Assembly (NCBI GenBank): GCA_965231005.1
Contig: OZ246405.1
Location: forward strand, 365,877-429,876
Source: an uncultured Gammaproteobacteria bacterium
Lineage (GTDB): Bacteria > Patescibacteriota > Patescibacteriia > Magasanikbacterales > UBA922
Length of the DNA: 64,000 bases
Reading direction: 5' to 3'
Part shown: in pieces, positions 3,801 to 62,232 of the stretch
Numbering within the stretch: the first letter of the stretch is position 1
Layout: each line of letters begins with the position of its first letter
Position numbers and translations under genes: made by a program
The notes under the pieces: model-generated
The model's database searches: none
What the model saw: only the letters and a program-made list of their open reading frames with translations
What the model was told of the DNA's origin: nothing

Positions 3801-4009
3801 AACAATTAACAAATAACAATTAACAACTTAGTATAGATTACTGTGAAGATTCGCATGTTCTATAGATATTACATACGATTTTTAACTTATCATTCGTTCG
3901 TTATAAAGATTCTATATATTAGATAATAAATAATAAATTTTAGAACCATCCTTATTTTTTAGAAACTTTCTATACGAGTTTGTTAATTGCTAATTGTTAG
4001 TTGTTAATT
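3801..4009. repeat. Family A stop-saturated motif, inverted pair around an A+T-rich spacer
   Basis: Reverse-orientation copy at 3801-3830 and forward copy at 3980-4009. It lies at the junction between the mid-GC cassette and nth. Confidence 0.8.
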
Positions 4010-9962: not shown

Positions 9963-10140
9963 ACAACTAAAAAAATTAACAACTAACAATTAACAACTAA
10001 CAATTAACAAGTTTTGATAAAATAATCCAATCTAATACCTTGAACAACATTGAGTGTTATAGTAATTCATTGAAGTACTCCTACAAATAAATAAACATTC
10101 TCTACTAAGTTGTTAATTGCTAATTGTTATTTGTTATTTA
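9963..10140. repeat. Family A stop-saturated motif, inverted pair around a spacer
   Basis: Reverse copy at 9963-10010 and forward diverged copy at 10110-10140. Confidence 0.8.
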
Positions 10141-14397: not shown

Positions 14398-14625
14398 ATG
14401 AGGATTTTGCGTTTCATTGTACTACAGGTCAGACGACCAAGGGCAAAGCAGAGAGCCTACGATCGAGTCATCATCATGATCCGGGACCGTCGATTCGATG
14501 ACACGACGGTTCAGAACAGGCTTATCGACTACAAGTACATGGTCAATGGTGATCACGACATGCCTGCAGGCTTGGTTCAGACGGTTCGACTTCATCGACC
14601 ACACCTGGCTTTTGCGTTGCAGTAG
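14398..14625 (+). CDS. Hypothetical basic protein (75 aa)
   Basis: AAGGGGG RBS and a G+C-richer segment. An antisense ORF at 14422-14682 lacks these signals. Confidence 0.45.
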   Translation: MRILRFIVLQVRRPRAKQRAYDRVIIMIRDRRFDDTTVQNRLIDYKYMVNGDHDMPAGLVQTVRLHRPHLAFALQ

Positions 14626-18160: not shown

Positions 18161-18180
18161 TAATTTCTTTGAAAAATTTA

Positions 18181-18206
18181 AACCCGGCCTTTTGGCCGGG
18201 TTTTTG
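18181..18206 (+). terminator. Rho-independent terminator
   Basis: AACCCGGCC-TTTT-GGCCGGGTT hairpin followed by a T-run. Confidence 0.75.
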
Positions 18207-18305
18207 TTACGACTCTTTATTATTCTTTTGCAAAAAATAGTAAAGAGTCGCCCACCGTCTTTCGTTGGTAGGCGACGGTGGAAGGCCTATGTCTGCGAGT
18301 TGCTT

Positions 18306-18665
18306 TTATGACAACAATCTGGGGAGAAAATCGCGAAGCTCAGGTTTCTCGCTTACGTGCGTGCAGCCTCTTTGCAGCTGTTGTGCACGTACCTCAGAAT
18401 CAGACGACACTCCGATGATGGGACCTGAGAACTTGACCACGTCGAGGAGATGACGAAGCAGTGCAAATGATTCATCTGTTTCTTCGCCGATGTACCCGTC
18501 CAGGACAACTGCCCAGGGAGGTTTTGGCAATGAACGCAGAATCGCACGTGCTTCTTCATATCCAGCAACGAAGACCGGTTCAAAGTCCTTTCCGAGTGCG
18601 ATCCTCAGAAGTGCGAGCCAGCGGTCTTCATCTTCGAGGATCAGGATGGTTGGTTTGTCTTGCAT
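18306..18665 (-). CDS. Stand-alone response-regulator receiver (CheY-like REC) protein
   Basis: ILILEDED acidic pocket, VVLDGYIG phospho-acceptor Asp, GVSSD and a SEKP Lys-Pro motif. The start lies 2 nt after the upstream stop. Confidence 0.65.
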   Translation of the reverse strand: MQDKPTILILEDEDRWLALLRIALGKDFEPVFVAGYEEARAILRSLPKPPWAVVLDGYIGEETDESFALLRHLLDVVKFSGPIIGVSSDSEVRAQQLQRGCTHVSEKPELRDFLPRLLS

Positions 18666-18667
18666 CT

Positions 18668-19288
18668 CTACTTCTCGACCGTGTACGGGAAGGCCCAGTA
18701 CTTCGGAACCTTGAGATCCATGGAGAGGTTGCTCGTCATGTGGATGCCGAACTTGCCATCCGTTGGGTTGAAGCTGATGTGTGGCATTTTCCCGCATTCG
18801 AGCTGTTCGTGAAGCGCGTAGAGCCGGGTCTTCTTTGGATCCAGTCCGGTCTTCTTTTGTGCGTCGTCCGTCCGCCAGGTGTACTGGTAGAAGCTGAGCA
18901 GCGCAGAGAAGTTGAGCGGCTTGCCCTTCTTGTACGCGATGTACTCGGCGACCTGCTTCAGCGTGGTCGTTGAGTTATTGGTTGTGTAGATCTTCACGTC
19001 CTTGATCGATCCGTGTTTTTCGGAGAAACAGCCGCCTTGCAGTTGCTTGTAGAATCCATCCCAGTGCGACAGGTCGAGTGCTTCGATGCGCTCAAGCAGA
19101 GCCAGGCCGTTAGTGTGCTTGGGCACGTCGGTCTTGGCGGTCGTGTCCTTGCTCACGGACGCGTCAGCATGGGAGCCGGCGTCGGAGTTGGTGAGCAGGT
19201 TGTCGTCCAGTGTCGGGCAGTCGTCAGCGCAGCCAGTGCTGGTGATCAAGAACATGGCAAGGAAAATCGCGGTTGCAAAGTGTTTCAT
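18668..19288 (-). CDS. Lipoprotein, function unknown
   Basis: Signal peptide plus ITSTGC lipobox. AAGGGGG RBS. Confidence 0.55.
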   Translation of the reverse strand: MKHFATAIFLAMFLITSTGCADDCPTLDDNLLTNSDAGSHADASVSKDTTAKTDVPKHTNGLALLERIEALDLSHWDGFYKQLQGGCFSEKHGSIKDVKIYTTNNSTTTLKQVAEYIAYKKGKPLNFSALLSFYQYTWRTDDAQKKTGLDPKKTRLYALHEQLECGKMPHISFNPTDGKFGIHMTSNLSMDLKVPKYWAFPYTVEK

Positions 19289-19409
19289 GGTATACCCCCT
19301 TAGGTCACTGCACGGTTGGTTAAAAGTCGGTTGTTGAAAGTCCGTGCGGTGTCTACAAGGGGCTATGGTTAAAAGAGCGTGTACTTATTATATCGAAATA
19401 AGATAGCTA

Positions 19410-19438
19410 ACAATAGCAAAATATCAATTTTTTGTCAA
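19410..19438 (-). promoter_or_regulatory. Sigma70-like promoter TTGACA-N17-TATTGT (minus strand)
   Basis: Sits within a roughly 130-bp module that is duplicated at 20340-20480. Confidence 0.5.
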
Positions 19439-19569
19439 GGCTTAGATATAAAATCAAAAAAACACCTAATTTAAGATGTTTTTTTGAACCATCCCCCGAG
19501 CATCACACATCAGCATTATCCCTAGGGGATGGTGTTGCGTGTGTCGGAGGGTGAACTCCTTGGTTGTTG

Positions 19570-20301
19570 TCAGTGCAGCGGTTCGATGGTGAACCATTCG
19601 CTGTCGTGTTTGTCCAGCACGATCTCCATCTCTGTGCCGACCTTGTCCCAGCTGTTCTCGTGATCTCGGAACAAAACCTGCACTGGAACAACGTCCTTGT
19701 ACAAAGGCGTGGTGTGCAGGCGAATGACCGCAGGACCTCCCACGGTGTACATGCTGAACTCCAGCTTGCCGCCGCAGATGACCTCTCCGATCGCCATGGG
19801 CTTGCCGTTGCAGGCATCGACCGGGTAGCTGTTGACCTTGCCAGAGCGGGCGCTCAGGGTGACGTTCTTCGGGCAGGTGATGAACACGTTGCCCATTGCC
19901 ATCCAGAGCTCGCGCTCGTTCTTCGGATCGGTGTTGTTTTGCATCAGGTGGCAGGTCTTGTAGGTCGGTTCGGAGTCGATCTTGGTGCTTGTCGCCTGCT
20001 CCTTGTCAGTGCACGGCGATGTGCTGCCGAGGTTGACGTGCTGGTCGCTGGCGCAGCCGCCCATGAACAGGGTAACTACGATGCCAGCGGCGACCGCAGT
20101 CCGACCGATCGGCGCAGCTGATTGCTTCTTCTCCAACCGGTTCAGCTTGACCAAGATGAGCGACAGGCCCACCGAGATTTCGAGCAAGAAAACGAAAATT
20201 AGCAGCATTGTGATATTTCCGCTCCTCTGTAGTTCAAATACGGTGAACCCACCAGCAAACAAGATAAGAAAAAAATGCGATATAGAAAGGATTCGTTCCA
20301 T
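19570..20301 (-). CDS. Membrane-anchored protein with two N-terminal TM helices, function unknown
   Basis: AAGGGGG RBS. TM segments followed by a Cys-containing extracytoplasmic domain. Confidence 0.55.
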   Translation of the reverse strand: MERILSISHFFLILFAGGFTVFELQRSGNITMLLIFVFLLEISVGLSLILVKLNRLEKKQSAAPIGRTAVAAGIVVTLFMGGCASDQHVNLGSTSPCTDKEQATSTKIDSEPTYKTCHLMQNNTDPKNERELWMAMGNVFITCPKNVTLSARSGKVNSYPVDACNGKPMAIGEVICGGKLEFSMYTVGGPAVIRLHTTPLYKDVVPVQVLFRDHENSWDKVGTEMEIVLDKHDSEWFTIEPLH

Positions 20302-20399
20302 GTTGTACCCCCTTGAATGAGCGCGCCAGGGTGACGCGGTCGGTCCAAGGGGTTACAACAAAAAGAACATACTTCTATTATACGAAATAGAAACAGCTA

Positions 20400-20428
20400 A
20401 ATATAGCAAAATGTTAATGTTTTGTCAA
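20400..20428 (-). promoter_or_regulatory. Sigma70-like promoter TTGACA-N17-TATATT (minus strand), duplicate of the 19410-19438 module
   Basis: About 80 percent identical by eye to the 19357-19500 region. Confidence 0.5.
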
Positions 20429-20556
20429 GGGTAAGGTATAAAATCAAAAAAACACCTATTTTAAGATACCTATAAAAAAGCATAAACCCCGCAACGCGAT
20501 GTCACGAGGCTATGCCTTGTGCGCGTGCGGGGTGGTTGACTTGTGTCGTCTCCTTG

Positions 20557-21741
20557 TTATTTTGGTTCGATGCTCAGCTTCACCATTCTCATCAAGCATC
20601 TGGTCTTGCCTGCCCATTTGCAGTTCGCTTTGACCGGAAGGATGATACGTCCCTTTTTGGCAGAGACAAGGTCTGCTGTTACAGAACCGTTTGAATGGTC
20701 TCGAATTGTCCCATTCCAATTTTCGTAGTGTCGGCAAGTACCGCTGCTACCACAGTTTGATCCGAGTTTAACTGTCACAAAGCGTGGTGCGTACTTGTTT
20801 GTTCCTTCCACATCCATCCGAAACGAAAGAGTTGTGGTGATGTTTGTGGGGAATTTTCCAAGTCCAGGACAGCGAATGTTTGGGACTCTCCTATCTGCTC
20901 CGCCAGCTGGAAATTGGATGTCAGGGATTTTCATGTTTTTGCATCCAACAGCTTCCGGGACTTTTACTGCCGGCAGTGTGAGTAGGTAGTTCCCTTTGTA
21001 GGAAGTGATGAACCGGATTTGTGCTTGTGGAGCAATCACATCGCCAGGCTTCCACCCTCGTGCAGGTTTGGAATTGATCGTTCGTTTGCAGATCATCTTT
21101 CGGGCAGTTGTGTGCGAGAGCGAGAGCGGAGGCTTTCCTGGATCTGTTGCATTTTTGAGCTCTCCTTTGCATGTCATGTTGCTCAGCTCCCGCCTTTTGA
21201 TTTGATGCAATTTGCAATCTTTGTATGGAAATCTGATCACACAGTAAGCACTGATCACCAGTTCAGACAAGATTGACTCTCCTGCAACAGGAGATGTACT
21301 TTGACCACTTGCCTCGATGATTGCACCATGTTTTTTTTCTGCACGGACGCATTTTTTCCATGCATCGGTCACATGTGGAGGAAGATATCTCCTTTCTACC
21401 ATGAGCTTTCCAATGTCAGTGGTCCTTCTTCGTGCAGCTTCACACATGATCTTTGCAACAGATTCGTAGTTGGAGCGTTTCGACGACTGACTTCCGCCAA
21501 TGTCTGCGTAGTGGAGTTGTGCCTTTCTGTCTGACCAGCTGTCCCTGATTCGTGTGTATTTCTTGCATTGTTTTTGGTACCATGCAAGGCTCTTGTTCCA
21601 GGCGCTATTGTTGACTTGAGTGCTTGCACCGTAGATCAGGATTTTTTCGCAGTGATCAGGTGGGCTTGCAACTGCGGGTGATCCGAACAAGAGTGACATG
21701 CTCGCAATGAACATGAAGATCCGAGACAAAAAAAATCGCAC
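20557..21741 (-). CDS. Secreted cysteine-rich protein (394 aa), function unknown
   Basis: GTG start preceded by GGAGGA. N-terminal signal peptide and more than 20 Cys residues. Confidence 0.5.
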   Translation of the reverse strand: MRFFLSRIFMFIASMSLLFGSPAVASPPDHCEKILIYGASTQVNNSAWNKSLAWYQKQCKKYTRIRDSWSDRKAQLHYADIGGSQSSKRSNYESVAKIMCEAARRRTTDIGKLMVERRYLPPHVTDAWKKCVRAEKKHGAIIEASGQSTSPVAGESILSELVISAYCVIRFPYKDCKLHQIKRRELSNMTCKGELKNATDPGKPPLSLSHTTARKMICKRTINSKPARGWKPGDVIAPQAQIRFITSYKGNYLLTLPAVKVPEAVGCKNMKIPDIQFPAGGADRRVPNIRCPGLGKFPTNITTTLSFRMDVEGTNKYAPRFVTVKLGSNCGSSGTCRHYENWNGTIRDHSNGSVTADLVSAKKGRIILPVKANCKWAGKTRCLMRMVKLSIEPK

Positions 21742-21787: not shown

Positions 21788-21876
21788 GCTTCACTCGCGG
21801 AGAGAGCGGGATTTGAACCCGCGAGCCCTTTGCAGGACTACTGCTTTTCGAAAGCAGCGCATTCAACCAGACTCTG
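21788..21876 (-). tRNA. tRNA-Ser (anticodon CGA)
   Basis: Hand-folded cloverleaf: GGAGAGA acceptor, CTGCT/AGCAG anticodon stem with loop TTCGAAA, long variable arm, GCGGG-TTCAAAT-CCCGC T-arm. Confidence 0.8.
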
Positions 21877-21892
21877 CCATCTCTCCATAATG

Positions 21893-22106
21893 ACAATTAG
21901 CAATTAACAAAAAACAATTAACAATTTTTTCATCACGACAAACAATATTTTCAGCTTTTAGATGTCGCAGATAACTATCTTTGGTGAAGAAATACAACCG
22001 CCAGCAGTATCAGGATTCGTTCATTATCTTTTTGTAAGATTAAGTAACGGAATAAGAGTTTGTTAGTTGTTAATTGTTAGTTGTTAGTTGTTAGTTTTCT
22101 ATCAAT
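21893..22106. repeat. Family A stop-saturated motif, inverted pair around a spacer
   Basis: Reverse copy at 21893-21924 and forward tandemised copy at 22069-22106. Confidence 0.8.
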
Positions 22107-23465: not shown

Positions 23466-23879
23466 TCAGTGGAGGGATTGTTCTTCTCTTTCGACAAATG
23501 CGTCTGCATGATCTGGCGTCCAAAGCATTGCTTCTTCACCTTTCAGTGTGTAGACAAGTGCTTCTGGCCACCTTCTCATTGCTGCGGTTGCCATCTCAGC
23601 TAGACCTGGTTTGGCACCAGGATTGGACCATTCGCGAGGTGTAATCAAGCGTTCTCTGGCAAGTCGGTGTCGTTCTTCTTTGGGCATGAATACATACTCT
23701 TTGTTGTATCCGCAGCCCTTTGCTGTTCTCGTGTAGATTTCGACTTGGAGTCTGCCAAACATCATGTGTTCATCAAAAATGACGACGAGTTTGACCCAAG
23801 GATGCTCTCGGTCGTAGCGTGAGTACGTGTGCAAAAAAATTGAAGCTTCAATCACCTTGCGTTCGTTTACTGTTGGCAT
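23466..23879 (-). CDS. Hypothetical protein (137 aa) in a G+C-richer cassette
   Basis: GGAGG RBS. An AAAGGGGG motif sits in the leader. Confidence 0.45.
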   Translation of the reverse strand: MPTVNERKVIEASIFLHTYSRYDREHPWVKLVVIFDEHMMFGRLQVEIYTRTAKGCGYNKEYVFMPKEERHRLARERLITPREWSNPGAKPGLAEMATAAMRRWPEALVYTLKGEEAMLWTPDHADAFVEREEQSLH

Positions 23880-33843: not shown

Positions 33844-33982
33844 TACTAGTTATTAGTTACTAGTTATTAGTTATTAGGACAAAATAGAAATATTTTTTTG
33901 CAAATGAAATAACATATTGGCACAAAACAAAAATTGCAAAAAATCTATTAACTAGTAGCTAATAACTATTATCTAATAATGT
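33844..33982. repeat. Stop-saturated inverted-repeat spacer family C (TTAGTTACTAGTTATTAGT arms)
   Basis: Arms of about 35 nt in inverted orientation around an A+T-rich loop. Other copies at 45958-46066 and 62132-62232. Confidence 0.75.
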
Positions 33983-34122: not shown

Positions 34123-34683
34123 TTATTGCTCGCAACGATACTGATTTCCAGGCTTGTGAAGGGTATCAAGATAGGCATGGATGTCCTGATACTTGCTTAG
34201 CGTCTCTTCCCAGTTTTTTGTACGAACAGGCAAGCTGCTACGAGGGAGTTTTTCCTTGATTCCAAAGGTCTTCTTACCATCTTGCACAAAAATCATGGCG
34301 AGCATCCGGCTTTTGTGTTCTTTGAACCACTGCTCGCGGAGTTGGCATGAATGTGCTGTTTTGCGCAGTTCGCTGGCATAGAAGATTGCATTGTGCCAGA
34401 ACAGTCCTGCTTCACGAGATTTGAACTTGAATGTGTCTTTGCAAACACCTTTGCCTTCGTGCGTCCGCTTCAGCAATGCATCAAGCTTGGGCTGTGTTGC
34501 ATTTGCCAACATTCGATGTATTGCCAGTGCCTCGGCATACTCTTCTTTGTCGAGCGGCTGAACGTACTTTTGAAGTCGGGGTGGATACAGTAGGCTCAAG
34601 TCTGCGACCGGATCGGTCTTGTGATTGAGAATCAGAACTGCGAAAAGGAAAAGAACGATTGCCACAGTGAGTGCTTGTTTCAT
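34123..34683 (-). CDS. Membrane-anchored hypothetical protein (186 aa)
   Basis: GGAGA RBS. N-terminal TM anchor. G+C-richer than the flanks. Confidence 0.45.
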   Translation of the reverse strand: MKQALTVAIVLFLFAVLILNHKTDPVADLSLLYPPRLQKYVQPLDKEEYAEALAIHRMLANATQPKLDALLKRTHEGKGVCKDTFKFKSREAGLFWHNAIFYASELRKTAHSCQLREQWFKEHKSRMLAMIFVQDGKKTFGIKEKLPRSSLPVRTKNWEETLSKYQDIHAYLDTLHKPGNQYRCEQ

Positions 34684-34813
34684 GGTCGTCTCCAAATGTG
34701 TGGGTGGAGGAATGCGTTGGAGTCTATCAAAAATAGACGTAGTATTCTTATCAATAAAAGTAGTTTGTGTCAATTATAGAATCATTCTATTTGAAGAAGA
34801 AATGGGAATTAGA

Positions 34814-34925
34814 AACCTGCCTTTGCCGGCAGGCAGGCTAGAAATTGGAAATTGGGGAATTCTCAAAAGCTATCTTGATCTAGTCCCCAAATTTCTAATT
34901 TCAAATTTCCAGTTTCCAAAAACAA
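34814..34925. repeat. Degenerate palindromic core (CCTGCCTTTGCCGGCAGGCAGG) fused to a family B inverted-repeat spacer (AGAAATTGGAAATTGGGGA arms)
   Basis: Hairpin-capable arms at 34838-34857 and 34883-34916. Other family B copies at 36083-36135, 46801-46888 and 60337-60417. Confidence 0.75.
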
Positions 34926-35020: not shown

Positions 35021-35542
35021 TTACTCGGCGTCTTCGTCTTCGCCAGGCTTGTAGCCAGCCGCGACTGCGACCAGGAGCCAGACGTAGGCGTCTGTAGCAG
35101 TTTCCAGACCCTTTGTGGTTGCCAGCTGCTTTGGGGTGGGCATCCCCTTCACAGCATTGGTCAGGTTTGCTTCGGTGAAATCCGTGTGCAGGATGGTTGC
35201 TCCTGTGAAGATTGCGTCGGTCAGGTCTGCATTGGACAGGTCGGTTTCCCGCAAGGACGCTGACGTGAGGTCTGCACTTTTCATGACAGCTGACGAAAGG
35301 TTGGCACCCTTCAGATTGGCTGAGGGCATGTAGGCTCCGGTCAGAATCGCATTGTCCAGCCTTGTTCTGACCAGCTCGGTTTGGGAAAAATTGACTCCAG
35401 TCAAATTGACCCCTCTCAGATCAACCTCGCTCAGATCGAGCATCAAAGTAGTCATGGTCTGGGCCGGTTCTTTCCGCCACGCATTGAACTTTTCGACCCC
35501 GCCTTCGCTCTTGAGCATCTCAACGATTTGCTGCTTTGTCAT
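35021..35542 (-). CDS. Pentapeptide-repeat protein
   Basis: Tandem A(D/N)LxX repeats (ANLKGANLSSAVMKSADLTSASLRETDLSNADLTDAIF). AAGGAG RBS. Confidence 0.75.
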   Translation of the reverse strand: MTKQQIVEMLKSEGGVEKFNAWRKEPAQTMTTLMLDLSEVDLRGVNLTGVNFSQTELVRTRLDNAILTGAYMPSANLKGANLSSAVMKSADLTSASLRETDLSNADLTDAIFTGATILHTDFTEANLTNAVKGMPTPKQLATTKGLETATDAYVWLLVAVAAGYKPGEDEDAE

Positions 35543-43639: not shown

Positions 43640-43671
43640 TTTGGCTTAGATTAGCAAAAAAAGACCACTGC

Positions 43672-43700
43672 TACGCCCCCGATTTTCGGGGGCTTTGCAG
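43672..43700 (+). terminator. Rho-independent terminator after rpoC
   Basis: GCCCCC-GATTTTC-GGGGGC hairpin followed by TTTG. Confidence 0.6.
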
Positions 43701-43749
43701 TGCAAGCGCTACATGAAGACATAACATTTTATAGCTTGTGCTGCGGAAC

Positions 43750-43777: not shown

Positions 43778-43952
43778 AAGCAGTTCCTTACAAAGCTCAG
43801 AGGAGCCGCCATTATTGTATTTGTCCAAGTACAATTATTGCGGTTTCTCTGTCATAAACGCAAGACAGCAGAAAAACGTAAGTCCCAAACCCCAACCCAA
43901 AACCCAGACAAGGACAATCAGCGACCACCTGGTTGCTACAGAGGAGGCAGCA

Positions 43953-45824
43953 ATGAAGATTTCCTACACGAAAGCCCTGCTCAGTCTCATGGTGGTCGCG
44001 TGCTTCACGGCATGTTCCACCACGGATGAGCCGGTCAACAGCGACACCAAGGCCGACGGGTCTGCGCTGGACGGAAGTTCGTCTGACGCAGGTTCGAGCG
44101 AAGACGTTCCCAAAGACATCGGAAGTCCTGATGTTGGCAAGGACACGGCCGAACCGGTCGACGCCAATCTCGGGCCGTGCCACGGCAAGAAGAACGGCGA
44201 CGAGTGCGACGACAGCAACCCCTGCACCACCGACGACGTTTGCACCGATGGCACCTGCGAGGGTGACGCGGTCAAGTGCGACGATGGCAACACCTGCACC
44301 AAGGATACGTGCAACAAGAAAGGCAAGTGCGAAGTGTCCTACCCGGACGACCTGAAGTGCGAGGACGGCAACAAGTGCACCATCGGTGACACATGTCAGG
44401 CCGGCAGCTGCATTGCAGGCAAGAAGAAGGAATGTTCGGAAGACGGCAACAAGTGCATCAAGTGGCAGTGCTTCCCGACCGAAGGATGCAAGTCCGAGAT
44501 CAAGGAAAACTTCTCGTGCGATGACAGCAACACCTGCACCAAGGATGACAAGTGCGACAGCGAGGGCAAGTGCAAGGGCGGAGGTCTGATCAACTGCAGT
44601 GATGGCAACCCGTGTTCCATCAACACCTGCGATTCCAAGACCGGATGTACTGGTACGCCCAAGGCTGGTCCTTGTGACGATAACAACCCGTGCACGGAGA
44701 ACGACTACTGCAAGGATCAGCAGTGCTTCGCTGGCAAGCTCAAGATCTGCAACGACAGCAAGCCTTGCACTGACGACCAGTGCAACTTGAACGACGGGAC
44801 ATGTTCGTACACGCCGGGTTCAGGCTCCTCGTGCAACGACAACAACTCGTGCACGACCAAGGACACCTGCAACAACGGCAAGTGCGAAGGCGTCAACGAC
44901 TTCAAGTACTGCAATGACGGCAATTCGTGTACGGAGCAAGACAGTTGCATCGGAGGAAAGTGCGTTGGCAAGACCAAGCAGTGCAATGACCAGAACCCCT
45001 GCACCAAGGATTCGTGCAAGCAGACCGGAACTGGTTGTACCTACGAGCATCTGAAGGGCGATCCGTGCGAAGACGGCATCCTGTGCACCATTGGTGAGCT
45101 TTGCTCCAAGGGTAAGTGCATCGGCGGCAAGGAGAAGAACTGTGACGATGGCAACATGTGCACCAAGGACTCGTGCGATAGCAACACGGGCAAGTGCGCG
45201 AATGACAAGGATCCTATCAAGGGTAAGGACTGCAACGATGGTAACAAGTGTACCGAAAAGGACTCGTGCATAGATGGCACTTGCAAAGGTGATGCACTCA
45301 ACTGTGAAGACGGTAAGGTCTGCACAGATCAAAGTTGCAATCCAGCCAAGGGCTGTGTCTTTACCAGCAAGAATGGGGCGAAGTGCGACGACAAGAATGC
45401 TTGTACGGACACGAGCGTCTGCAAGGGGACGGTCTGCGTTCCCTTGAAGATCACTCAGTGTCCGAACGGTACCAAGTGCAAGCCGAACATCTGCAATCCA
45501 AAGACTGGCCTGTGCGAGCTCAAGGAAAAGAACTGCGACGACAGCAACTTCTGTACGAAGGACTACTGCGATGCCAAGTTCGGTGTGTGCAAACATGTCG
45601 CTCACAAAAACGGCAGTACATGCAGCGATAACGACATCTGTACTCAGGGTGATGTGTGCAACAGCGGGAAGTGTATTGGCAACCCGCCGACCAAATGGTG
45701 CAAGGATGACAACAAGTGCACCAGCGATGCCTGCAACTCGCAGACCGGGGTGTGCGAGTTTACGTGCTTGGTTCCCAAGGTAAACGGCGTTTGTCCGCTG
45801 AACGACCCGATCGCCTGCAAGTAG
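43953..45824 (+). CDS. Cysteine-rich-repeat lipoprotein (about 25 tandem C-x-D-x-N-x-C-T-x-D-x-C modules)
   Basis: GAGGAGG RBS. Signal peptide with Cys lipobox (VVACFTAC). G+C-rich. Repeats resemble the myxobacterial-type Cys-rich repeat, with DGN/DSN-CT cores. Confidence 0.7.
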   Translation: MKISYTKALLSLMVVACFTACSTTDEPVNSDTKADGSALDGSSSDAGSSEDVPKDIGSPDVGKDTAEPVDANLGPCHGKKNGDECDDSNPCTTDDVCTDGTCEGDAVKCDDGNTCTKDTCNKKGKCEVSYPDDLKCEDGNKCTIGDTCQAGSCIAGKKKECSEDGNKCIKWQCFPTEGCKSEIKENFSCDDSNTCTKDDKCDSEGKCKGGGLINCSDGNPCSINTCDSKTGCTGTPKAGPCDDNNPCTENDYCKDQQCFAGKLKICNDSKPCTDDQCNLNDGTCSYTPGSGSSCNDNNSCTTKDTCNNGKCEGVNDFKYCNDGNSCTEQDSCIGGKCVGKTKQCNDQNPCTKDSCKQTGTGCTYEHLKGDPCEDGILCTIGELCSKGKCIGGKEKNCDDGNMCTKDSCDSNTGKCANDKDPIKGKDCNDGNKCTEKDSCIDGTCKGDALNCEDGKVCTDQSCNPAKGCVFTSKNGAKCDDKNACTDTSVCKGTVCVPLKITQCPNGTKCKPNICNPKTGLCELKEKNCDDSNFCTKDYCDAKFGVCKHVAHKNGSTCSDNDICTQGDVCNSGKCIGNPPTKWCKDDNKCTSDACNSQTGVCEFTCLVPKVNGVCPLNDPIACK

Positions 45825-45957: not shown

Positions 45958-46066
45958 ATAGTTATTAGATATTAGTTACTAGTTATTAGTCTTGATTTTA
46001 CCTATACATTATTATATTGTATCTATACTAAACTAATACCTAATACCTAGTAACTAATAATTAGTA
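45958..46066. repeat. Family C stop-saturated inverted-repeat spacer
   Basis: TAGTTATTAGATATTAGTTACTAGTTATTAGT ... ACTAATACCTAATACCTAGTAACTAATAATTAGTA. Confidence 0.75.
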
Positions 46067-46072
46067 TTGCGT

Positions 46073-46804
46073 ATGTCCGGCCATAGTAAGTGGAGCAAAA
46101 TTCGTCATAAAAAAGGAAAAGCAGATGCAGCACGAAGTAATATTTTTACCAAGTTATCACGCGGCATTACTGTAGCAGCACGAGAAGGCGGTGGAGATTT
46201 AGATATGAATTTTAGTTTGCGTCTTGCAGTAGAAAAAGCAAAGGCAGCAAATATGCCAAAAGATAATATTGAACGAGCCATAAAGCGTGGAACAGGTGAA
46301 TTAAAAGATGGTGCAGTCATAGAAGAAATTTTGTACGAAGGATTTGGCCCAGAAGGTATTGCATTTCTTGTTGATGCAGTCACAGACAACAAGAACAGAG
46401 CAGTTAGCGAAATAAAACATGCGTTTTCAAAATATGGTGGGTCACTTGGTGGACCTGGAAGTGTTCAGTGGCAGTTTGAACACAAAGGGGTAATCAGATT
46501 TACTACAGACAAAAAAAATAGTATCCCAGATTGGGAAACAGCACAGCTCGAACTTATGGATGCAGGTGCAGAAGACATTATTGAATCAGAAGAAGGCGTT
46601 GAAATTATTACAAATATGAAGCAGTTTCAACCGACGACAAAGGTATTTGAAACACTTGGCATTGAAGCAGATGAATCTGGAATTGAATGGATTGCAAAAG
46701 AGTCTCTCTCTTTAGATGAGCAAGCCTCTGAAAAAGTGGAAAAACTTTATGACGCGCTCGACGAGCTAGATGATGTGAGGTCGGTGTTTACAAATGAAGG
46801 TTAG
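46073..46804 (+). CDS. yebC: YebC/PmpR-family transcriptional regulator
   Basis: N-terminal MSGHSKWSKIRHKKGKADAARS is diagnostic. Three-domain length. Confidence 0.9.
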   Translation: MSGHSKWSKIRHKKGKADAARSNIFTKLSRGITVAAREGGGDLDMNFSLRLAVEKAKAANMPKDNIERAIKRGTGELKDGAVIEEILYEGFGPEGIAFLVDAVTDNKNRAVSEIKHAFSKYGGSLGGPGSVQWQFEHKGVIRFTTDKKNSIPDWETAQLELMDAGAEDIIESEEGVEIITNMKQFQPTTKVFETLGIEADESGIEWIAKESLSLDEQASEKVEKLYDALDELDDVRSVFTNEG

Positions 46805-46888
46805 AAATTGGAAACTGGAAATTGGGGATTGTAGAGAGATATTTTTTGTTAAATCCCGAATTTCTAATTTCTAATTTCCAATTTCTAT
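46801..46888. repeat. Family B inverted-repeat spacer
   Basis: AGAAATTGGAAACTGGAAATTGGGGA ... TCCCGAATTTCTAATTTCTAATTTCCAATTTCT. It abuts both the yebC stop and the ruvC start. Confidence 0.75.
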
Positions 46889-47405: not shown

Positions 47406-47540
47406 GTGGATATTTTTGTTTTGAATATTTTTTTTTGATATAATGTAAATACAGTATTCATCTTCTTTTTACTGTGAGGAAAAAACTTTACAAATTAGCT
47501 AAACGAGCTATCCTTTTTGAGATAGAATTTTGTGTTTGAT

Positions 47541-47613
47541 AATAATTAAGATTAAGAATTAAGATTAAAAAATCTGGTTAGTCTTATTCCTTAATCCTTA
47601 ATTATTGAAATCT
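47541..47613. repeat. Stop-rich inverted-repeat spacer family D (AATTAAGATTAAGAATTAAGATT / TCTTATTCCTTAATCCTTAATT)
   Basis: Hairpin-capable arms seen in the sequence. Confidence 0.6.
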
Positions 47614-55346: not shown

Positions 55347-55472
55347 GGAAATATAGAAATAAGGAAATAAAGAAATTAAGGGGGTAAAGTAAAAAGACCC
55401 TATTTTTTTATAACCTTGGACGTTTATTTAAAGCCCCTTATTTCTTTATTTCTCTATTTCACTATTTCTTTA
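55347..55472. repeat. Inverted-repeat spacer family E (AAATATAGAAATAAGGAAATAAAGAAATTAAGGGG arms)
   Basis: The two arms are reverse-complementary around a spacer of about 55 nt. Confidence 0.6.
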
Positions 55473-55630: not shown

Positions 55631-55978
55631 ATGCTTACAAAAAGAAAAAAGCAGAACATTATTAAAAAATACCAGTCTCATGCAGATGATACTGGATCAA
55701 GTCAGGTGCAAATTGCCATTCTGACATCAGAGATTGAGGAACTTGTGTCTCATCTAAAGGCACACCACAAGGATCATTCTTCCCGTCGTGGTTTGCTCCG
55801 AAAAGTTGGAGAACGTCGTCGATTACTTCGTTTTTTGAAAAAAGAAAACTTAAAAGAGTATGAGAAATTGGTGAAGAGTTTGAACCTTAAACAGGCAAAA
55901 CCTCTTCAAAAACCAACTCCTGTCTCTGCTGAAAATACTCCTGAAGAATCTAAAGAAGATGACAGCACAAAAAGCTAA
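55631..55978 (+). CDS. rpsO: 30S ribosomal protein S15 with a C-terminal extension
   Basis: SQVQIAILTSEIEELVSHLKAHHKDHSSRRGLL matches the S15 core. The extra Lys/Glu/Pro tail is about 25 aa. Confidence 0.85.
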   Translation: MLTKRKKQNIIKKYQSHADDTGSSQVQIAILTSEIEELVSHLKAHHKDHSSRRGLLRKVGERRRLLRFLKKENLKEYEKLVKSLNLKQAKPLQKPTPVSAENTPEESKEDDSTKS

Positions 55979-59378: not shown

Positions 59379-59460
59379 GGGGGTGTGGTGAAATTGGTAT
59401 ACACGGCAGCCTTAGGAGCTGTTGCCGCGAGGCGTGAGAGTTCGAGTCTCTCCACCCCCA
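59379..59460 (+). tRNA. tRNA-Leu (anticodon TAG)
   Basis: Hand-folded: GGGGGTG/CACCCCC acceptor, GCAGC-CTTAGGA-GCTGT anticodon arm, 13-nt variable arm, GAGAG-TTCGAGT-CTCTC T-arm. Confidence 0.75.
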
Positions 59461-59486
59461 CTGCTACGCTCAAGCAAAGCTTGAGC

Positions 59487-59543
59487 TTCGCAGTGCAGGC
59501 ACTGCATGTCGCTCTACAAGATTGGAGCTTCGCAGTGCAAGCA
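59487..59543. repeat. Direct repeat GAGCTTCGCAGTGCA(G/A)GCAC x2 plus a GCTCAAGC-AAA-GCTTGAGC hairpin just 3' of tRNA-Leu
   Basis: Two 20-nt copies 16 nt apart. Possible att-like or terminator structure. Confidence 0.5.
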
Positions 59544-59603
59544 CAAATTTGATTTCTTTATATAAGTGCGTTCATTTTGGAAGCGCATTTATTGGAGGAG
59601 ATC

Positions 59604-60221
59604 ATGAACGAAGAAACACGGAAGCTTATAGCTCTTTGGCAAAAAAAGTACGGCACCGATTCATTCGAGCGCGGAAAGCACGATAGGGAGTCGTTCGAGC
59701 TCCAAATAGTGGAAACGTGCCGCCTGACTGAACCTGATTTGAGCAGGATTGAGTTTTGGGAGCCGTCTCGGACTGCTTCGCAGAAACTGGCATTCATGAG
59801 GTATTCTGACTTGTACGAGCGCGCGCTTGACCTTGATGCTATGACTGGGTTGCAGGACATGCTGCACATCCTGGCACTTGTTGACTCTTTCCCAGAGCAG
59901 CTGTTACATGGCGTGATTGTTGCGTTCATGGGGGTTCTGCCGCTTGGTCAAGGATTCGCATATATCCAAAGAATTGATGGCGTGTGGAGCATCGGCATTG
60001 CCAACCTTCCTCACTTCAACTACGTACCGTTCATCCCAAGGACCCGGTGTAAATGGAGGAATCCTTTTGACACTCTTGCTCCCTTCGACTACGTCCCAGA
60101 TTTGAAACCAACATACGGACTCGTATTTGCAAGAGTACGACCTCAGAAGTCAGGCCCAAGGCCTTACCCGCAGATCATCTTCAATCAACACGATTCCTTT
60201 GCAATGTGCGGAGGTCTCTAA
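59604..60221 (+). CDS. Hypothetical protein (205 aa), G+C-rich
   Basis: GGAGGAG RBS ahead of the second in-frame ATG. No recognisable domain. Confidence 0.5.
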   Translation: MNEETRKLIALWQKKYGTDSFERGKHDRESFELQIVETCRLTEPDLSRIEFWEPSRTASQKLAFMRYSDLYERALDLDAMTGLQDMLHILALVDSFPEQLLHGVIVAFMGVLPLGQGFAYIQRIDGVWSIGIANLPHFNYVPFIPRTRCKWRNPFDTLAPFDYVPDLKPTYGLVFARVRPQKSGPRPYPQIIFNQHDSFAMCGGL

Positions 60222-60336
60222 TCCCGAACTACACATCAACCTGGCGATTGTCTCAAAACCTTCGCCGCAAGGAGAATGTTCGGGGACTATCGAAAACACA
60301 TCTCAATGAGGTGTTTTTTTGATGTTAAAAAAAGAT

Positions 60337-60417
60337 TAGAAATTAGAAATTGGAAATTCGGGATTTTTCAAAAAAATGGTTTGTTATGTCCCTAATTTCT
60401 AATTTCCAGTTTCTAAT
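60337..60417. repeat. Family B inverted-repeat spacer
   Basis: AGAAATTAGAAATTGGAAATTCGGGA ... CCCTAATTTCTAATTTCCAGTTTCT. Confidence 0.7.
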
Positions 60418-60478
60418 TATTATTTTCTTAATTTAAAATAACAGCTGGTATAGATTGTAAATAGTAGATGACAAAATA

Positions 60479-60507
60479 TTGACTATACGTATATTGTATG
60501 ATATACA
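60479..60507 (+). promoter_or_regulatory. Sigma70-like promoter TTGACT-N17-TATACA
   Basis: Sits 30 nt ahead of the AAGGGGG RBS. Confidence 0.5.
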
Positions 60508-60542
60508 TTCCATACCCAAGAACTACTACAAGGGGGTCTACA

Positions 60543-61988
60543 ATGGGTAACAACGACCAAGTTCATTTCACTACTCCGTTCATTTCTTGCGGAACATCTG
60601 GTGCTCGCGGGTTCCACTTTACCGAGGTTACTCCAGCGCTGGCACAAGGCTACGCGTTTGGCTTGGCCATGATTACCAAGGCCAAGACTGGACGGTCTGT
60701 CTACTACGTCGCCTGTGATCAGCGCGAGACTGCTCAGCTTCTCGGCCTCAGCGCGTGCTATGGCATTCGCCTGGCTGGTGCTGACGTGGTCTGGCTCGGC
60801 TGTGTGTCGACCGGTGTGTTCTCCGCGATGATGCACGTGGGCAAAAAGAAAGGTGAAAACGTGGCTGGTGGCGTTCTCATCACTGGCTCGCACATGCCGC
60901 CCGAGCGGATTGGCATCATCCCGATCAATGCTGATGGCACGTACTGCACAACCGAAGTGACCGATGCAATTTCGGGTCGGCTCAAAGGAATGCGCAGTAT
61001 TTCACTCGCACTGGATACTGAAAACGGTAACACCATCGTTGGCAAGCAGACAGTGATTCACCCCGAAGCAAGCTACCTCGCATACAAGGGGTTCATCAAC
61101 AGTTTCATCGGTCAGGAAGAGCTCCAAGGGATGCGAATGCTCATTGACGTGGGCAATGGAACTGGTGGTGCACCTGCCAACGTCCTGTGCAGGCACTTCG
61201 GCATCACCCATGATCTTCTTTTCCCCCATCCAAAGCCACAGCCAGATCGGCCAAGCGAGTGCAAGCCTGAGAGCTGCACCGAAGCCATCAATCGCATGAA
61301 AGCGGGCTTCTACGACATTGGCCTGTGTCTGGATGGTGATGCTGACCGCGTGATGATGATCGACGCAAGCGGCAACGTGGTTCCGGCCAATGTGGTCGCA
61401 GCCATCTTCATCAAGAACTTGCTCAAGAAAGGGGAGTCCATTGTCACACCGACCAACTCCAGTGGCGTGGTTTATCAGCTGTGCGAGGACATGGGCGTTC
61501 AGGTGTTTCCGTGCAAGATCGGTCAGCCCGATACTGGGCGTGCGATCAACGAACACAGCGCTCACTTCGGTTTCGAGGCAACTTGCAAGTACGCGTTTTC
61601 GCAAATGGCCTTCCCCTGGTTCGATGGTCTGTTCGCCGGATTCATGATGATGAAGGTCATGCAGATGACAGGGAAGACCCTGGCTGAGCTCGCTGCTGAG
61701 CATCCGGTGTTCTCGCGTGTTGAGATCAACGTCGAGTGCGATTCGGTCAGCAAAGGCCAGGTCGAAGCGATTCACGAGAAGATGTGCCAAGCATTTGGCG
61801 CAAAAGCCGTCAACGTAGACTCGATCAACGGTCTGCGCCTGATGCAGGAGGACTTCACCTGGGTCATGGTGCGTCCAAGCGGTACTGAGCCGCTGATCCG
61901 CATCTACGTCGATGGTCCGGACAAGATGAAGGTTGATGCACTCGGAAGTGCTGCCAAAATCATCGTCGAAGAGGTCATGGGCCTGTAG
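60543..61988 (+). CDS. Phosphoglucomutase/phosphomannomutase-family (alpha-D-phosphohexomutase) enzyme
   Basis: Active-site Ser loop TGSHMPPE, metal-binding loop DGDADR, four-domain length. Very G+C-rich compared with the backbone. Confidence 0.75.
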   Translation: MGNNDQVHFTTPFISCGTSGARGFHFTEVTPALAQGYAFGLAMITKAKTGRSVYYVACDQRETAQLLGLSACYGIRLAGADVVWLGCVSTGVFSAMMHVGKKKGENVAGGVLITGSHMPPERIGIIPINADGTYCTTEVTDAISGRLKGMRSISLALDTENGNTIVGKQTVIHPEASYLAYKGFINSFIGQEELQGMRMLIDVGNGTGGAPANVLCRHFGITHDLLFPHPKPQPDRPSECKPESCTEAINRMKAGFYDIGLCLDGDADRVMMIDASGNVVPANVVAAIFIKNLLKKGESIVTPTNSSGVVYQLCEDMGVQVFPCKIGQPDTGRAINEHSAHFGFEATCKYAFSQMAFPWFDGLFAGFMMMKVMQMTGKTLAELAAEHPVFSRVEINVECDSVSKGQVEAIHEKMCQAFGAKAVNVDSINGLRLMQEDFTWVMVRPSGTEPLIRIYVDGPDKMKVDALGSAAKIIVEEVMGL

Positions 61989-62065: not shown

Positions 62066-62232
62066 CAATTAACAACTAACAATTAGCAATTAACAAAAAA
62101 GTATAGAAAGATTCTTTAAGTTAAGAATGATGTTACTAGTTATTAGTTACTAGCTAATAGTTAATAGACAATACAAGAAAGATTTAAACCTAGATAGCTA
62201 ACAACTAGTAACTAATAGCTAATAACTAATTT
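62066..62232. repeat. Family A motif (reverse orientation) followed by a family C inverted-repeat spacer
   Basis: CAATTAACAACTAACAATTAGCAATTAACAA at 62066-62096. Family C arms at 62132-62232. Confidence 0.75.

What the first reader, a model, noticed from the sequence alone, without database searches (positions are those of the whole stretch)
19300..20480. Duplicated 130-bp promoter/leader module upstream of two island genes
Regions 19357-19500 and 20340-20480 are about 80 percent identical by eye. Each carries a minus-strand TTGACA-N17-TAT(T/A)(G/T)T promoter, and an AAGGGGG RBS follows each leader. The shared conserved blocks, for example AAAATCAAAAAAACACCTA, could be an operator for a common regulator such as the neighbouring REC-containing pathway.
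Basis: seen in the sequence. Interest (0 to 1): 0.5.

Follow-up and report, generated by a model that had tools for sequence, protein, structure and literature searches.

The report
Duplicated promoter-leader before two foreign genes
Two unrelated, recently acquired genes in a small uncultured Patescibacteria-type bacterium each sit behind a copy of one ~170-190-base expression cassette, a strong promoter plus a leader that folds over its own ribosome-binding site; this is a clean case of promoter re-use, not a new kind of element.

Summary
The repeat is real. On the minus strand, 19289-19477 and 20302-20467 are homologous, with a 93-nt core at 86% identity (E 2e-24). No other upstream region in the window is related. 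Independent assemblies reproduce both copies.

Each copy contains, in order:
- an A/T-rich upstream block, 22 nt of it identical
- TTGACA-N17-(TGn)TATTGT/TATATT
- a 92-115-nt leader
- AAGGGGG, 6 nt, then ATG

The leaders fold into an in-register hairpin in which CCCCUUG pairs with the Shine-Dalgarno (SD) sequence. All 17 shared pairs form in both copies, and 4 show compensatory changes.

The downstream genes are unrelated ORFans (predicted lipoproteins). Their third-codon-position GC (GC3) is about 0.8, in a genome where it is about 0.2. They lie in a 3.6-kb island next to tRNA-Ser. This meets the published definition of a propagated ("putative mobile") promoter, as a two-member family.

The operator/REC idea is not supported. 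The REC-like ORF is a weak, stand-alone receiver with no DNA-binding domain. The conserved block lies where an UP element would, and it is the 3' arm of a terminator hairpin in copy A.

No relatives were found in public collections, and copy number in the rest of the 1.23-Mb genome is unknown. The finding is ordinary in kind and moderately interesting in context.

The parts
19289..19477 (-). Copy A of the cassette: upstream block, promoter and 5' leader up to the base before the ATG. It is made of a 115-nt A/T-rich part (19363-19477, 25% GC) and a GC-rich distal leader (19289-19362, 53% GC).
20302..20467 (-). Copy B of the cassette. It is made of a 115-nt A/T-rich part (20353-20467, 24% GC) and a GC-rich distal leader (20302-20352, 67% GC).
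19447..19468 (-). 22-nt block identical in both copies (minus strand TAGGTGTTTTTTTGATTTTATA), at about -44 to -65 from the predicted start site of copy A. It sits at the UP-element position and is the 3' arm plus T-run of hairpin 19454-19487.
20437..20458 (-). The same 22-nt block in copy B. Here the 5' arm of the hairpin is missing, so the left end of the homology falls inside the hairpin.
19410..19438 (-). Promoter A: TTGACA (19438-19433), 17-nt spacer ending in TGC, TATTGT (19415-19410). Predicted start site about 19404.
   Evidence: 10 of 12 matches, TG present
20400..20428 (-). Promoter B: TTGACA (20428-20423), 17-nt spacer ending in TGC, TATATT (20405-20400). Predicted start site about 20395.
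   Evidence: 11 of 12 matches, TG present
19356..19362 (-). Anti-SD CCCCUUG of leader A. It pairs with the SD at 19295-19301.
20346..20352 (-). Anti-SD CCCCUUG of leader B. It pairs with the SD at 20308-20314.
19295..19301 (-). Shine-Dalgarno AAGGGGG of ORF A, 6 nt before the ATG at 19288.
20308..20314 (-). Shine-Dalgarno AAGGGGG of ORF B, 6 nt before the ATG at 20301.
19313..19342 (-). 14-nt tandem duplication that forms the enlarged apical loop of hairpin A. It accounts for the 20-23-nt length difference from leader B.
18668..19288 (-). ORF A, 206 aa. It has a predicted lipoprotein signal (…LITSTGC), GC3 0.80, and no homologue other than itself.
18306..18665 (-). 119-aa receiver-like ORF. 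It starts 2 nt after the ORF A stop, so it is in the same operon. GC3 is about 0.5.
19570..20301 (-). ORF B, 243 aa, with hydrophobic N-terminal segments followed by …LFMGGC. GC3 is 0.77 overall but only 0.40-0.50 in the first ~35 codons. It has no homologue other than itself. An internal AGAGGAG plus ATG at 20208 is the alternative start used by one gene caller (212 aa).
19454..19530 (-). Two hairpins after ORF B: a GC-rich one (about 19491-19530) and an A/T one with a T-run (19454-19487). Together they are the predicted terminator of ORF B, directly abutting promoter A.
20485..20533 (-). GC-rich hairpin plus T-run: the predicted terminator of the 394-aa ORF, directly upstream of copy B.
18180..18275 (-). 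Two terminator-like hairpins that end the ORF A / receiver-like operon and mark the left edge of the higher-GC island.
21797..21886 (-). tRNA-Ser(cga) at the right edge of the island. The 394-aa ORF (20557-21741) starts 55 nt after it.

Best explanation
This is a two-copy, re-used (propagated) expression cassette. About 170-190 nt of non-coding DNA has been duplicated in front of two non-homologous, recently acquired genes. These genes lie head-to-tail in a 3.6-kb higher-GC island next to tRNA-Ser, in a small A/T-rich Patescibacteria-type genome.

Each copy provides four things.
1. An A/T-rich upstream block at the UP-element position.
2. A near-consensus sigma-70-type promoter with an extended -10.
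3. Possibly a small 5'-terminal hairpin.
4. A long leader hairpin in which a CCCCUUG anti-SD pairs with the AAGGGGG Shine-Dalgarno and the SD-to-AUG spacer.

The inferred consequence is that both transcription units are transcribed strongly from the same signals, but translation starts from a stably occluded SD. Protein output would be held low, or would depend on something that opens the hairpin.

Shown: the homology and its extent, the non-homology of the flanking genes, the consensus promoter matches, and the in-register hairpin with compensatory changes. Inferred: promoter activity, the transcription start site, translational attenuation, and that the A/T-rich 115-nt half originated in this (or a similarly A/T-rich) lineage rather than in the donor of the genes.
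For: Homology: 93-nt core at 86% identity, E 2e-24; 78% over the whole cassette; local score 69 versus 8-19 for 32 other upstream regions.

Flanking coding sequences do not align, at DNA or protein level. [quoted passage not shown]

Promoters: 10-11 of 12 consensus matches with TG, the two best in 5.5 kb. The same TTGACAAA…TGnTAnnnT form precedes native rpoB and the gene at 55631, so the promoter is host-type.

Leader:
- Minimum free energy is -27.3 (z -2.5) for A and -44.6 (z -7.3) for B.
- On an unfitted MAFFT alignment, all 17 shared pairs form in both copies. Four show compensatory double changes and two show one-sided changes, whereas slid controls give 16-59% paired and 0-1 double changes (register check).
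- The length difference is a tandem duplication confined to the apical loop.
- SD unpaired probability is 0.13-0.14 at 15-45 C, against 0.5-0.75 for four other AAGGGGG-led genes and one AAGGAG-led gene.

Foreign genes:
- GC3 is 0.80 and 0.77, against 0.17-0.29 for native genes.
- Codon usage correlates between A and B (r 0.81) and is anticorrelated with native genes (-0.42 and -0.48).
- Neither has a homologue among 5.8e9 proteins, nor does ORF A among 1.84e9 representatives searched by full HMMER.

The assembly was independently confirmed.
Against: Only 64 kb of a 1.23-Mb genome could be searched. The copy number, the source copy and the direction of duplication are therefore unknown.

There is no expression data, so the promoter, start site and translational effect are predictions.

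The covariation rests on two sequences, and the tested structure was derived from them (caveat; 30 of 500 shuffles reach the observed values).

The 5'-terminal hairpin is weak in copy A (-1.9 kcal/mol, z -1.0).

The copies differ by 14% in the core while the genes still have GC3 of about 0.8. This fits awkwardly with a simple recent local duplication under neutral drift. Both copies could instead descend from different members of a larger family, or have arrived ready-made.

The native genes appear to lack SD sequences altogether, so how much an SD or its occlusion matters in this organism is uncertain.
Confidence: 0.6

Rival explanations
1. The cassette arrived ready-made with the genes. ORF A and ORF B were two units of one donor element, such as a plasmid or island of another A/T-promoter organism, whose genes shared a repeated regulatory region. 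On this view nothing was duplicated or captured in this genome.
For: A and B have the most similar codon usage of any gene pair tested (r 0.81). They are adjacent in one tRNA-linked island. Homology runs through the GC-rich distal leader, SD and first codons. The 14% divergence of the cores suggests the duplication is older than the very unameliorated GC3.
Against: The 115-nt promoter halves are 24-25% GC, against 56-59% in the genes. A donor with GC3 0.8 would not be expected to have such promoters. The promoter form matches native promoters of this genome. The island is compositionally mosaic: the 394-aa ORF and the receiver-like ORF have GC3 of about 0.45-0.5. No related cassette or gene was found in any public collection searched.
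Confidence: 0.2
2. One reading: the conserved blocks, especially the identical 22-mer, are an operator bound by a common transcription factor, perhaps linked to the neighbouring receiver-like protein. On this view conservation reflects regulator binding.
For: 22 of 22 positions are identical in a background of about 85% identity. The position, about -44 to -65, would suit a class I activator. A receiver-like ORF lies in the copy-A operon.
Against: The receiver-like ORF has no DNA-binding domain and no Pfam match. No convincing dyad or direct-repeat symmetry is shared by both copies; the only inverted repeat (19454-19487) exists in copy A alone. The block is a T-run with A/T-rich DNA, as found upstream of native strong promoters. 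Part of it recurs as a terminator arm at 60290-60327, which is not followed by a related promoter. At 85% background identity, 22 identical positions have a chance probability of about 0.03 before correcting for the choice of window.
Confidence: 0.12
3. This is a remnant of a tandem duplication of a whole promoter-plus-gene unit, after which the two coding regions diverged beyond recognition or one was replaced.
For: The units are head-to-tail and 990 nt apart. Both products look like membrane-anchored or lipid-anchored secreted proteins. Homology continues 4-7 nt into the coding region (ATGRAAC).
Against: No protein or DNA similarity exists between the coding regions (BLASTP E 0.16-0.7; no blastn hit), while the non-coding part keeps 86% identity. 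That is the reverse of the usual pattern. The first ~35 codons of ORF B have a different composition from ORF A's start.
Confidence: 0.06
4. It is a small non-autonomous mobile element (MITE-like or IS remnant) that carries an outward-facing promoter.
For: Such elements are one known route of promoter propagation (PMC3488235).
Against: No terminal inverted repeats or flanking direct repeats bound the homology. There are only two copies in 64 kb. There are no relatives in genome, metagenome or viral collections. No transposase or integrase is present in the island.
Confidence: 0.02

Closest known systems
Putative mobile promoters / promoter propagation (Matus-Garcia, Nijveen & van Passel, Nucleic Acids Res 2012; PMC3488235)
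   Same: Highly similar non-coding DNA (at least 50 nt at 80% identity or more) upstream of non-homologous genes within one genome, with non-homologous neighbours. Two-member families are the commonest case in that survey (68%).
   Different: Homology here is longer: it runs from about -75 to +5 of the coding sequence. It includes a structured, SD-occluding leader. Both target genes are compositionally foreign ORFans in one island, and the host is an uncultured Patescibacteria-type organism. The propagation mechanism is unknown.
Phage 'morons' (independent promoter-ORF-terminator units of deviant composition inserted between genes; Hendrix and co-workers, recalled from my own knowledge)
   Same: Each unit here is a predicted promoter, an ORF and hairpin terminator(s), with base composition very different from the surrounding genome.
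   Different: The units are not in a prophage: there are no phage-family hits. Two neighbouring units share one promoter-leader.
SD-sequestering 5' leaders (RNA thermometers such as ROSE or fourU, and expression platforms of translational riboswitches)
   Same: An upstream anti-SD pairs with the SD and the region up to the start codon.
   Different: The pairing is fully complementary and G-C-rich, and does not open between 15 and 45 C in silico. No aptamer-like conserved domain and no Rfam match were found. It works like a translational lock but is not a member of those families.
Sigma-70/SigA promoters with an extended -10 and an A/T-rich UP element
   Same: TTGACA, 17 nt, TGn, TAnnnT, with a T-tract upstream at about -44 to -59.
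   Different: None in form. Activity is untested in this organism.
tRNA-linked genomic islands
   Same: A higher-GC block of 3.6 kb begins directly at the 3' side of tRNA-Ser. The Wzy-to-tRNA-Ser order is conserved in a relative.
   Different: There is no integrase and no repeat of the tRNA 3' end at the far border.

Membership tests
Propagated / putative mobile promoter (PMP; PMC3488235) | Upstream regions align over at least 50 nt at 80% identity or more | tested here: met
   93 nt at 86% identity, E 2e-24
Propagated / putative mobile promoter (PMP; PMC3488235) | Downstream coding sequences do not align | tested here: met
   ORF A versus ORF B: BLASTP E 0.16-0.7, no blastn hit
Propagated / putative mobile promoter (PMP; PMC3488235) | Upstream coding sequences do not align | tested here: met
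   ORF B versus the 394-aa ORF: only 17-nt / E>0.2 matches
Propagated / putative mobile promoter (PMP; PMC3488235) | The sequence actually drives transcription | not testable with these tools
   Only consensus matches are available
Sigma-70-type promoter with extended -10 | -35 and -10 hexamers at 16-18 nt spacing with TG at -15/-14 | tested here: met
   TTGACA-17-TATTGT and TTGACA-17-TATATT, both with TG
UP element | A/T-rich tract at -40 to -60 that raises promoter strength via the alpha subunit C-terminal domain | tested here: inconclusive
   81-84% A+T upstream of -35, similar to native strong promoters. Function not testable.
RNA thermometer (ROSE, fourU) | The SD is paired by an upstream segment | tested here: met
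   CCCCUUG:AAGGGG(G) pairing in both copies
RNA thermometer (ROSE, fourU) | Imperfect, weak pairing that melts over the physiological temperature range | tested here: not met
   SD unpaired probability stays at 0.13-0.14 from 15 to 45 C; hairpins are -27 and -45 kcal/mol
Known riboswitch or cis-regulatory RNA family (Rfam 15) | Match to a curated covariance model | tested here: not met
   No match at gathering score; only chance-level hits at E up to 10
MITE / IS-borne outward promoter | Terminal inverted repeats and target-site duplication at the ends of the repeat | tested here: not met
   No such repeats
MITE / IS-borne outward promoter | Multiple dispersed copies | tested here: inconclusive
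   Two copies in 64 kb and none in public collections; the rest of the genome was not available
Operator of a response regulator | A neighbouring regulator with a receiver domain plus a DNA-binding domain | tested here: not met
   119-aa ORF with no Pfam hit and weak receiver-only similarity
Operator of a response regulator | Repeat or dyad symmetry conserved in both copies | tested here: not met
   The only inverted repeat is confined to copy A
tRNA-linked genomic island | Deviant composition adjacent to a tRNA gene | tested here: met
tRNA-linked genomic island | An integrase, and a direct repeat of the tRNA 3' end at the distal border | tested here: not met

The most novel reading that the evidence does not exclude
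In this Patescibacteria lineage the native genes are SD-less and apparently have very short or no leaders, whereas compositionally foreign genes are expressed through leader-plus-SD cassettes. The duplicated module would then be a portable 'adaptor' that the lineage re-uses to switch on newly acquired genes. It would combine a host-type strong promoter with a locked SD leader, and further copies would exist elsewhere in the 1.23-Mb genome. The locked SD would keep foreign envelope proteins under the control of a common trans-acting factor that opens the hairpin.
Probability: 0.12. Interest if true: 0.6.

Novelty: new member of a known kind. Interest (0 to 1): 0.35.

Why it matters
How horizontally acquired genes obtain working expression signals is still documented mostly by anecdote. 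Here two unrelated, very recently acquired ORFan genes in a reduced, uncultured bacterium carry the same host-type promoter and the same SD-locking leader. That makes this a compact natural example of promoter re-use. It is also a testable pair for asking whether SD occlusion is used to tame foreign envelope proteins. The wider pattern in the window, SD-led foreign genes against SD-less native genes, may say more about translation initiation in Patescibacteria than the repeat itself does.

Tried and rejected
1. Search for relatives of the cassette. The pattern TTTTTGATTTTATA-N8-TTGACA gave 2 hits in genome contigs, 5 in metagenome contigs and 1 in viral contigs. None resembles the cassette beyond the pattern (nhmmer E>1). 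There was no plasmid match.

2. A third diverged copy. Upstream regions of the Dicty_CTDC ORF (43750) and of the genes at 14398 and 60543 looked similar by eye. Their local alignment scores (13-19) barely exceed the native background (up to 14), and nhmmer gives E 0.24. I rejected them as sharing only the promoter consensus.

3. Function of ORF A and ORF B. There were no Pfam, NCBIfam or PHROG hits. There were no homologues by word-indexed search, nor, for ORF A, by full HMMER search. Single-sequence AlphaFold models had pLDDT 38.7 and 34.9 and were unusable, so no fold search was run.

4. The second TATAAT box 20 nt downstream as the real -10. It has no -35 at 16-18 nt, and it lies in the loop and 3' arm of a small hairpin. 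I kept it only as an untested alternative.

5. RNA thermometer: rejected, because there is no melting between 15 and 45 C.

6. Conserved upstream ORF in the leader: none. A 5-codon upstream ORF occurs in copy B only, by direct reading.

7. att-type repeat of the tRNA-Ser 3' end at the island's left border: none.

8. Homology of the A/T-rich first 35 codons of ORF B to anything else in the window: none.

9. Retrieving the 1.23-Mb contig or the study behind PRJEB17505: not possible.
Full report

Yes. The repeat finder returns a single long direct repeat in 18.5-21.5 kb: 19346-19477 versus 20336-20467, 132 nt, 74% identical without gaps, 990 nt apart. A MAFFT alignment of the minus strands (19280-19530 versus 20293-20520) gives 78% column identity. 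blastn within the window gives a 93-nt core (19386-19477 / 20376-20467) at 86% identity, E 2e-24.

With up to three mismatches, 0.13 matches are expected by chance.

In 20-column blocks, identity is 14-19 of 20 from about 19484 to 19386. It is 8-12 of 20 in the distal leader and rises again at the ribosome-binding site and start codon. The similarity is therefore far more than the two promoter hexamers.

The A-versus-B local score is 69. Thirty-two other upstream regions of the window score 8-19 against either copy. Within the 64 kb this is a two-member family.

Logan assemblies of two sequencing runs reproduce 21078-19490 and 20593-19269 exactly. Further contigs bridge native DNA into the island. 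The arrangement is not an assembly artefact.

**2. Anatomy**

All features are on the minus strand. Read 5' to 3', each copy contains the following.

- **(a) Upstream block.** This is an A/T-rich stretch with 22 identical bases, TAGGTGTTTTTTTGATTTTATA (19468-19447 and 20458-20437).
- **(b) Promoter.** TTGACA, a 17-nt spacer ending in TGC, then TATTGT (A) or TATATT (B). These are the two best promoter-like sites in 17.0-22.5 kb.
- **(c) Leader.** It is about 115 nt in A and about 92 nt in B.
- **(d) Start region.** AAGGGGG, 6 nt, then ATG.

Compositionally, each copy is a 115-nt part at 24-25% GC, followed by a distal leader at 53% GC (A) or 67% GC (B).

In copy A the 22-nt block is the 3' arm and T-run of a 14-bp A/T hairpin (19454-19487). 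Together with a GC-rich hairpin (about 19491-19530), this follows the stop codon of ORF B. A homologue of the A/T hairpin (85% over 39 nt) follows ORF 59577-60221 at 60290-60327.

In copy B only four bases of the 5' arm remain. The left end of the homology therefore lies inside a terminator hairpin.

**3. The leader**

Both leaders fold into a long hairpin in which CCCCUUG (19362-19356 and 20352-20346) pairs with AAGGGG of the SD. The bases 5' of the anti-SD pair with the SD-to-AUG spacer. The minimum free energy is -27.3 kcal/mol (z -2.5) for A and -44.6 kcal/mol (z -7.3) for B.

The helices are in the same register relative to the anti-SD and the SD. On a plain MAFFT alignment (A2), 17 pairs are common to both copies.
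- All 17 pairs form in both copies.
- Four pairs carry compensatory double changes (A-U/G-C, C-G/G-C, A-U/G-C, G-C/C-G).
- Two pairs carry one-sided changes.
- When the 3' partners are slid by 1-3 columns, only 16-59% of cells pair and 0-1 double changes appear.

Two caveats apply: there are only two sequences, and the structure was derived from them.

The 20-23-nt length difference is a 14-nt tandem duplication inside the apical loop of A (19313-19342). An indel there does not disturb the stems.

The SD is unpaired with probability 0.13-0.14 at 15, 25, 37 and 45 C. For four other AAGGGGG-led genes and one AAGGAG-led gene in the window, the figure is 0.5-0.75. This is a stable lock, not a thermometer.

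A small A/U hairpin begins 2-3 nt after the predicted start site and contains the second TATAAT-like box. It is marginal in A (-1.9, z -1.0) and clearer in B (-4.9, z -3.5). It could act as a 5' stabiliser, but I treat it as tentative.

Rfam gives no match.

**4. The genes and the island**

Copy A drives ORF A (18668-19288, 206 aa, signal peptide ending LITSTGC). Two nucleotides after its stop comes a 119-aa ORF (18306-18665). Two terminator-like hairpins follow.

Copy B drives ORF B (19570-20301, 243 aa). One gene caller starts it at an internal AGAGGAG plus ATG at 20208, giving 212 aa.

ORF A and ORF B show no similarity to each other, to the 394-aa ORF upstream, or to the 119-aa ORF. Neither has any homologue but itself among 5.8 billion proteins. 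ORF A has none among 1.84 billion representatives read by full HMMER. No Pfam, NCBIfam or PHROG family matches.

Their GC3 is 0.80 and 0.77, where native genes have 0.17-0.29. Their codon usage correlates with each other (r 0.81) and is anticorrelated with native genes. The first ~35 codons of ORF B are A/T-rich (GC3 0.40-0.50).

The higher-GC block runs from about 18.24 to 21.8 kb and abuts tRNA-Ser(cga) at 21797-21886. It has no integrase and no tRNA-end repeat.

The organism is a Patescibacteria/CPR bacterium near Candidatus Magasanikbacteria, judged from the names on homologues of its Wzy-type gene. The source contig is 1,232,850 bp. A relative (61% Wzy identity) keeps the Wzy-to-tRNA-Ser order, but its contig ends just after the tRNA.

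**5. What it most likely is**

By the operational definition of Matus-Garcia et al. (2012), this is a propagated ("putative mobile") promoter family of two members. [quoted passage not shown] Two-member families were the commonest size in their survey. All three sequence criteria are met here.

The promoter half looks host-like. It has the host's base composition, and the same TTGACAAA…TGnTAnnnT shape stands before rpoB and the gene at 55631.

My best reading (confidence 0.6) is a re-used expression cassette. It would give two foreign envelope-protein genes the same strong transcription signals and the same SD-locking leader. Translation would then be attenuated, or dependent on a factor that opens the hairpin. 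The homology, the promoter consensus and the in-register hairpin are shown. Promoter activity, the start site, the translational effect and the place of origin are inferred.

**6. Rivals**

- **Ready-made import (0.2).** The cassette came with both genes from one donor element. In favour are the shared codon usage, the adjacency, and the 14% core divergence alongside unameliorated GC3. Against are the 25% GC promoter halves and the mosaic composition of the island.
- **Operator for a common regulator (0.12).** Nothing positively supports this. The receiver-like ORF has no Pfam hit even at E<=1 and only weak PDB receiver matches. It has no DNA-binding domain. The block has no symmetry shared by both copies and sits at the UP-element position.
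- **Whole-unit tandem duplication with diverged genes (0.06).** The pattern of conservation is the wrong way round.
- **MITE-like element (0.02).** It has no ends, and no other copies were found.
- **Chance or low complexity.** This is excluded.

**7. Comparison with known systems, and novelty**

In kind this is already known: promoter re-use, an extended -10 promoter, and an SD-sequestering leader. It is not a member of any curated RNA family. It fails the melting criterion for thermometers.

It is a new member of a known kind. The modest extra interest comes from the conserved SD lock and from the setting. I score interest at 0.35.

**8. Limits**

Only the 64-kb window, a few short contigs of the same population and one relative contig could be examined. 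The pattern scans of public genome, metagenome and viral collections found no relatives. Copy number and source in the full genome remain open.

Noticed in passing
whole window; e.g. starts at 1484, 2505, 4610(-), 6847(-), 25601, 62308 versus 4710, 9471, 14398, 19288(-), 20301(-), 35542(-), 43815, 60543: There are two classes of genes. Native genes (GC3 0.17-0.29) have no Shine-Dalgarno: only 2 of 23 have even a weak AGGA. Many have a TAnnnT box only a few nt before the ATG, which suggests very short or absent leaders. GC-richer genes (GC3 >= 0.40) nearly all have a strong SD (11 of 13), most often AAGGGGG, which occurs 9 times in the window. In 7 of those 9 cases it sits 4-6 nt before a start codon. 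Each of these genes is preceded by its own TTGAC(A/T)-N17-(TGn)-10 promoter. Fisher p = 8.7e-6.
   Followed up: partly
3801-4009, 9977-10136, 21893-22096, 33847-33979, 34841-34909, 45959-46059, 46804-46887, 47540-47602, 55348-55472, 60335-60434, 62132-62230: Many intergenic regions carry inverted pairs of short tandem arrays: 4-6 copies of an A/T-rich 7-mer (once an 8-mer), with arms 35-150 nt apart. The heptamer differs between sites, but the two arms of a pair are reverse complements. Several pairs lie at junctions between native and GC-richer genes, including between the Wzy gene and tRNA-Ser at the edge of this island.
   Followed up: no
43668-43716; 59459-59505; ~59515-59545: A repeated GC-rich nested-hairpin element, CACTGCTACGC-[hairpin]-CTTYGCAGTGCARGC…CATG. 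It occurs after rpoC (before the GC-rich Dicty_CTDC ORF) and twice directly after tRNA-Leu(tag) (before GC-richer ORFs). It is absent from the tRNA-Ser island.
   Followed up: partly
43815-45824 (+): A 669-aa ORF directly after rpoC has GC3 0.74 and four Dictyostelium-type CTDC repeats (Pfam E 2e-23). Its GAGGAG SD and TTG start are also buried in leader hairpins (SD unpaired probability about 0; z -3.9).
   Followed up: partly
59379-61988: A second higher-GC patch follows tRNA-Leu(tag). It holds ORF 59577-60221 (no family) and a phosphoglucomutase/phosphomannomutase-family gene 60543-61988 (GC3 0.67) with its own TTGACT promoter and AAGGGGG SD. The terminator at 60290-60327 is homologous to the hairpin upstream of promoter A.
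   Followed up: partly
L015 3658-4308 (-); window 23466-23879 (-): A relative from the same project (48.6% GC) also carries a GC3-rich (0.76) 216-aa ORF. It has an AAGGGGG SD preceded by a hairpin, and it lies between the flippase and Wzy genes. In the window, the same flippase-to-Wzy gap holds a different GC-richer 137-aa ORF with an AAGGGGG upstream. This gap seems to be a recurrent insertion site, and the SD-led GC-rich gene class is not confined to one genome.
   Followed up: partly
20197-20301 (-): The first ~35 codons of ORF B are A/T-rich (38% GC) and lie between the 67% GC distal leader and the 59% GC gene body. An internal AGAGGAG plus ATG (20208) offers a second start, and the two public gene calls disagree (243 versus 212 aa). 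ORF B may be a fusion of a foreign body to a locally derived 5' end.
   Followed up: partly
35021-35542 (-) and 34123-34773 (-): There is a pentapeptide-repeat ORF (GC3 0.65) with a TTGACAAAAAA…TGATATATT promoter and an AAGGAG SD. A GC-richer 216-aa ORF lies next to it, just upstream of the rpoB promoters.
   Followed up: no
upstream of 14307(-), 15956(-), 28020, 28719(-), 31211(-), 33839(-): In 6 of 22 native genes a TAnnnT hexamer directly abuts the ATG (positions -6 to -1). This is more than the roughly one expected by chance. It is too close to be a -10 box for a transcript that starts at the ATG, and it remains unexplained.
   Followed up: no
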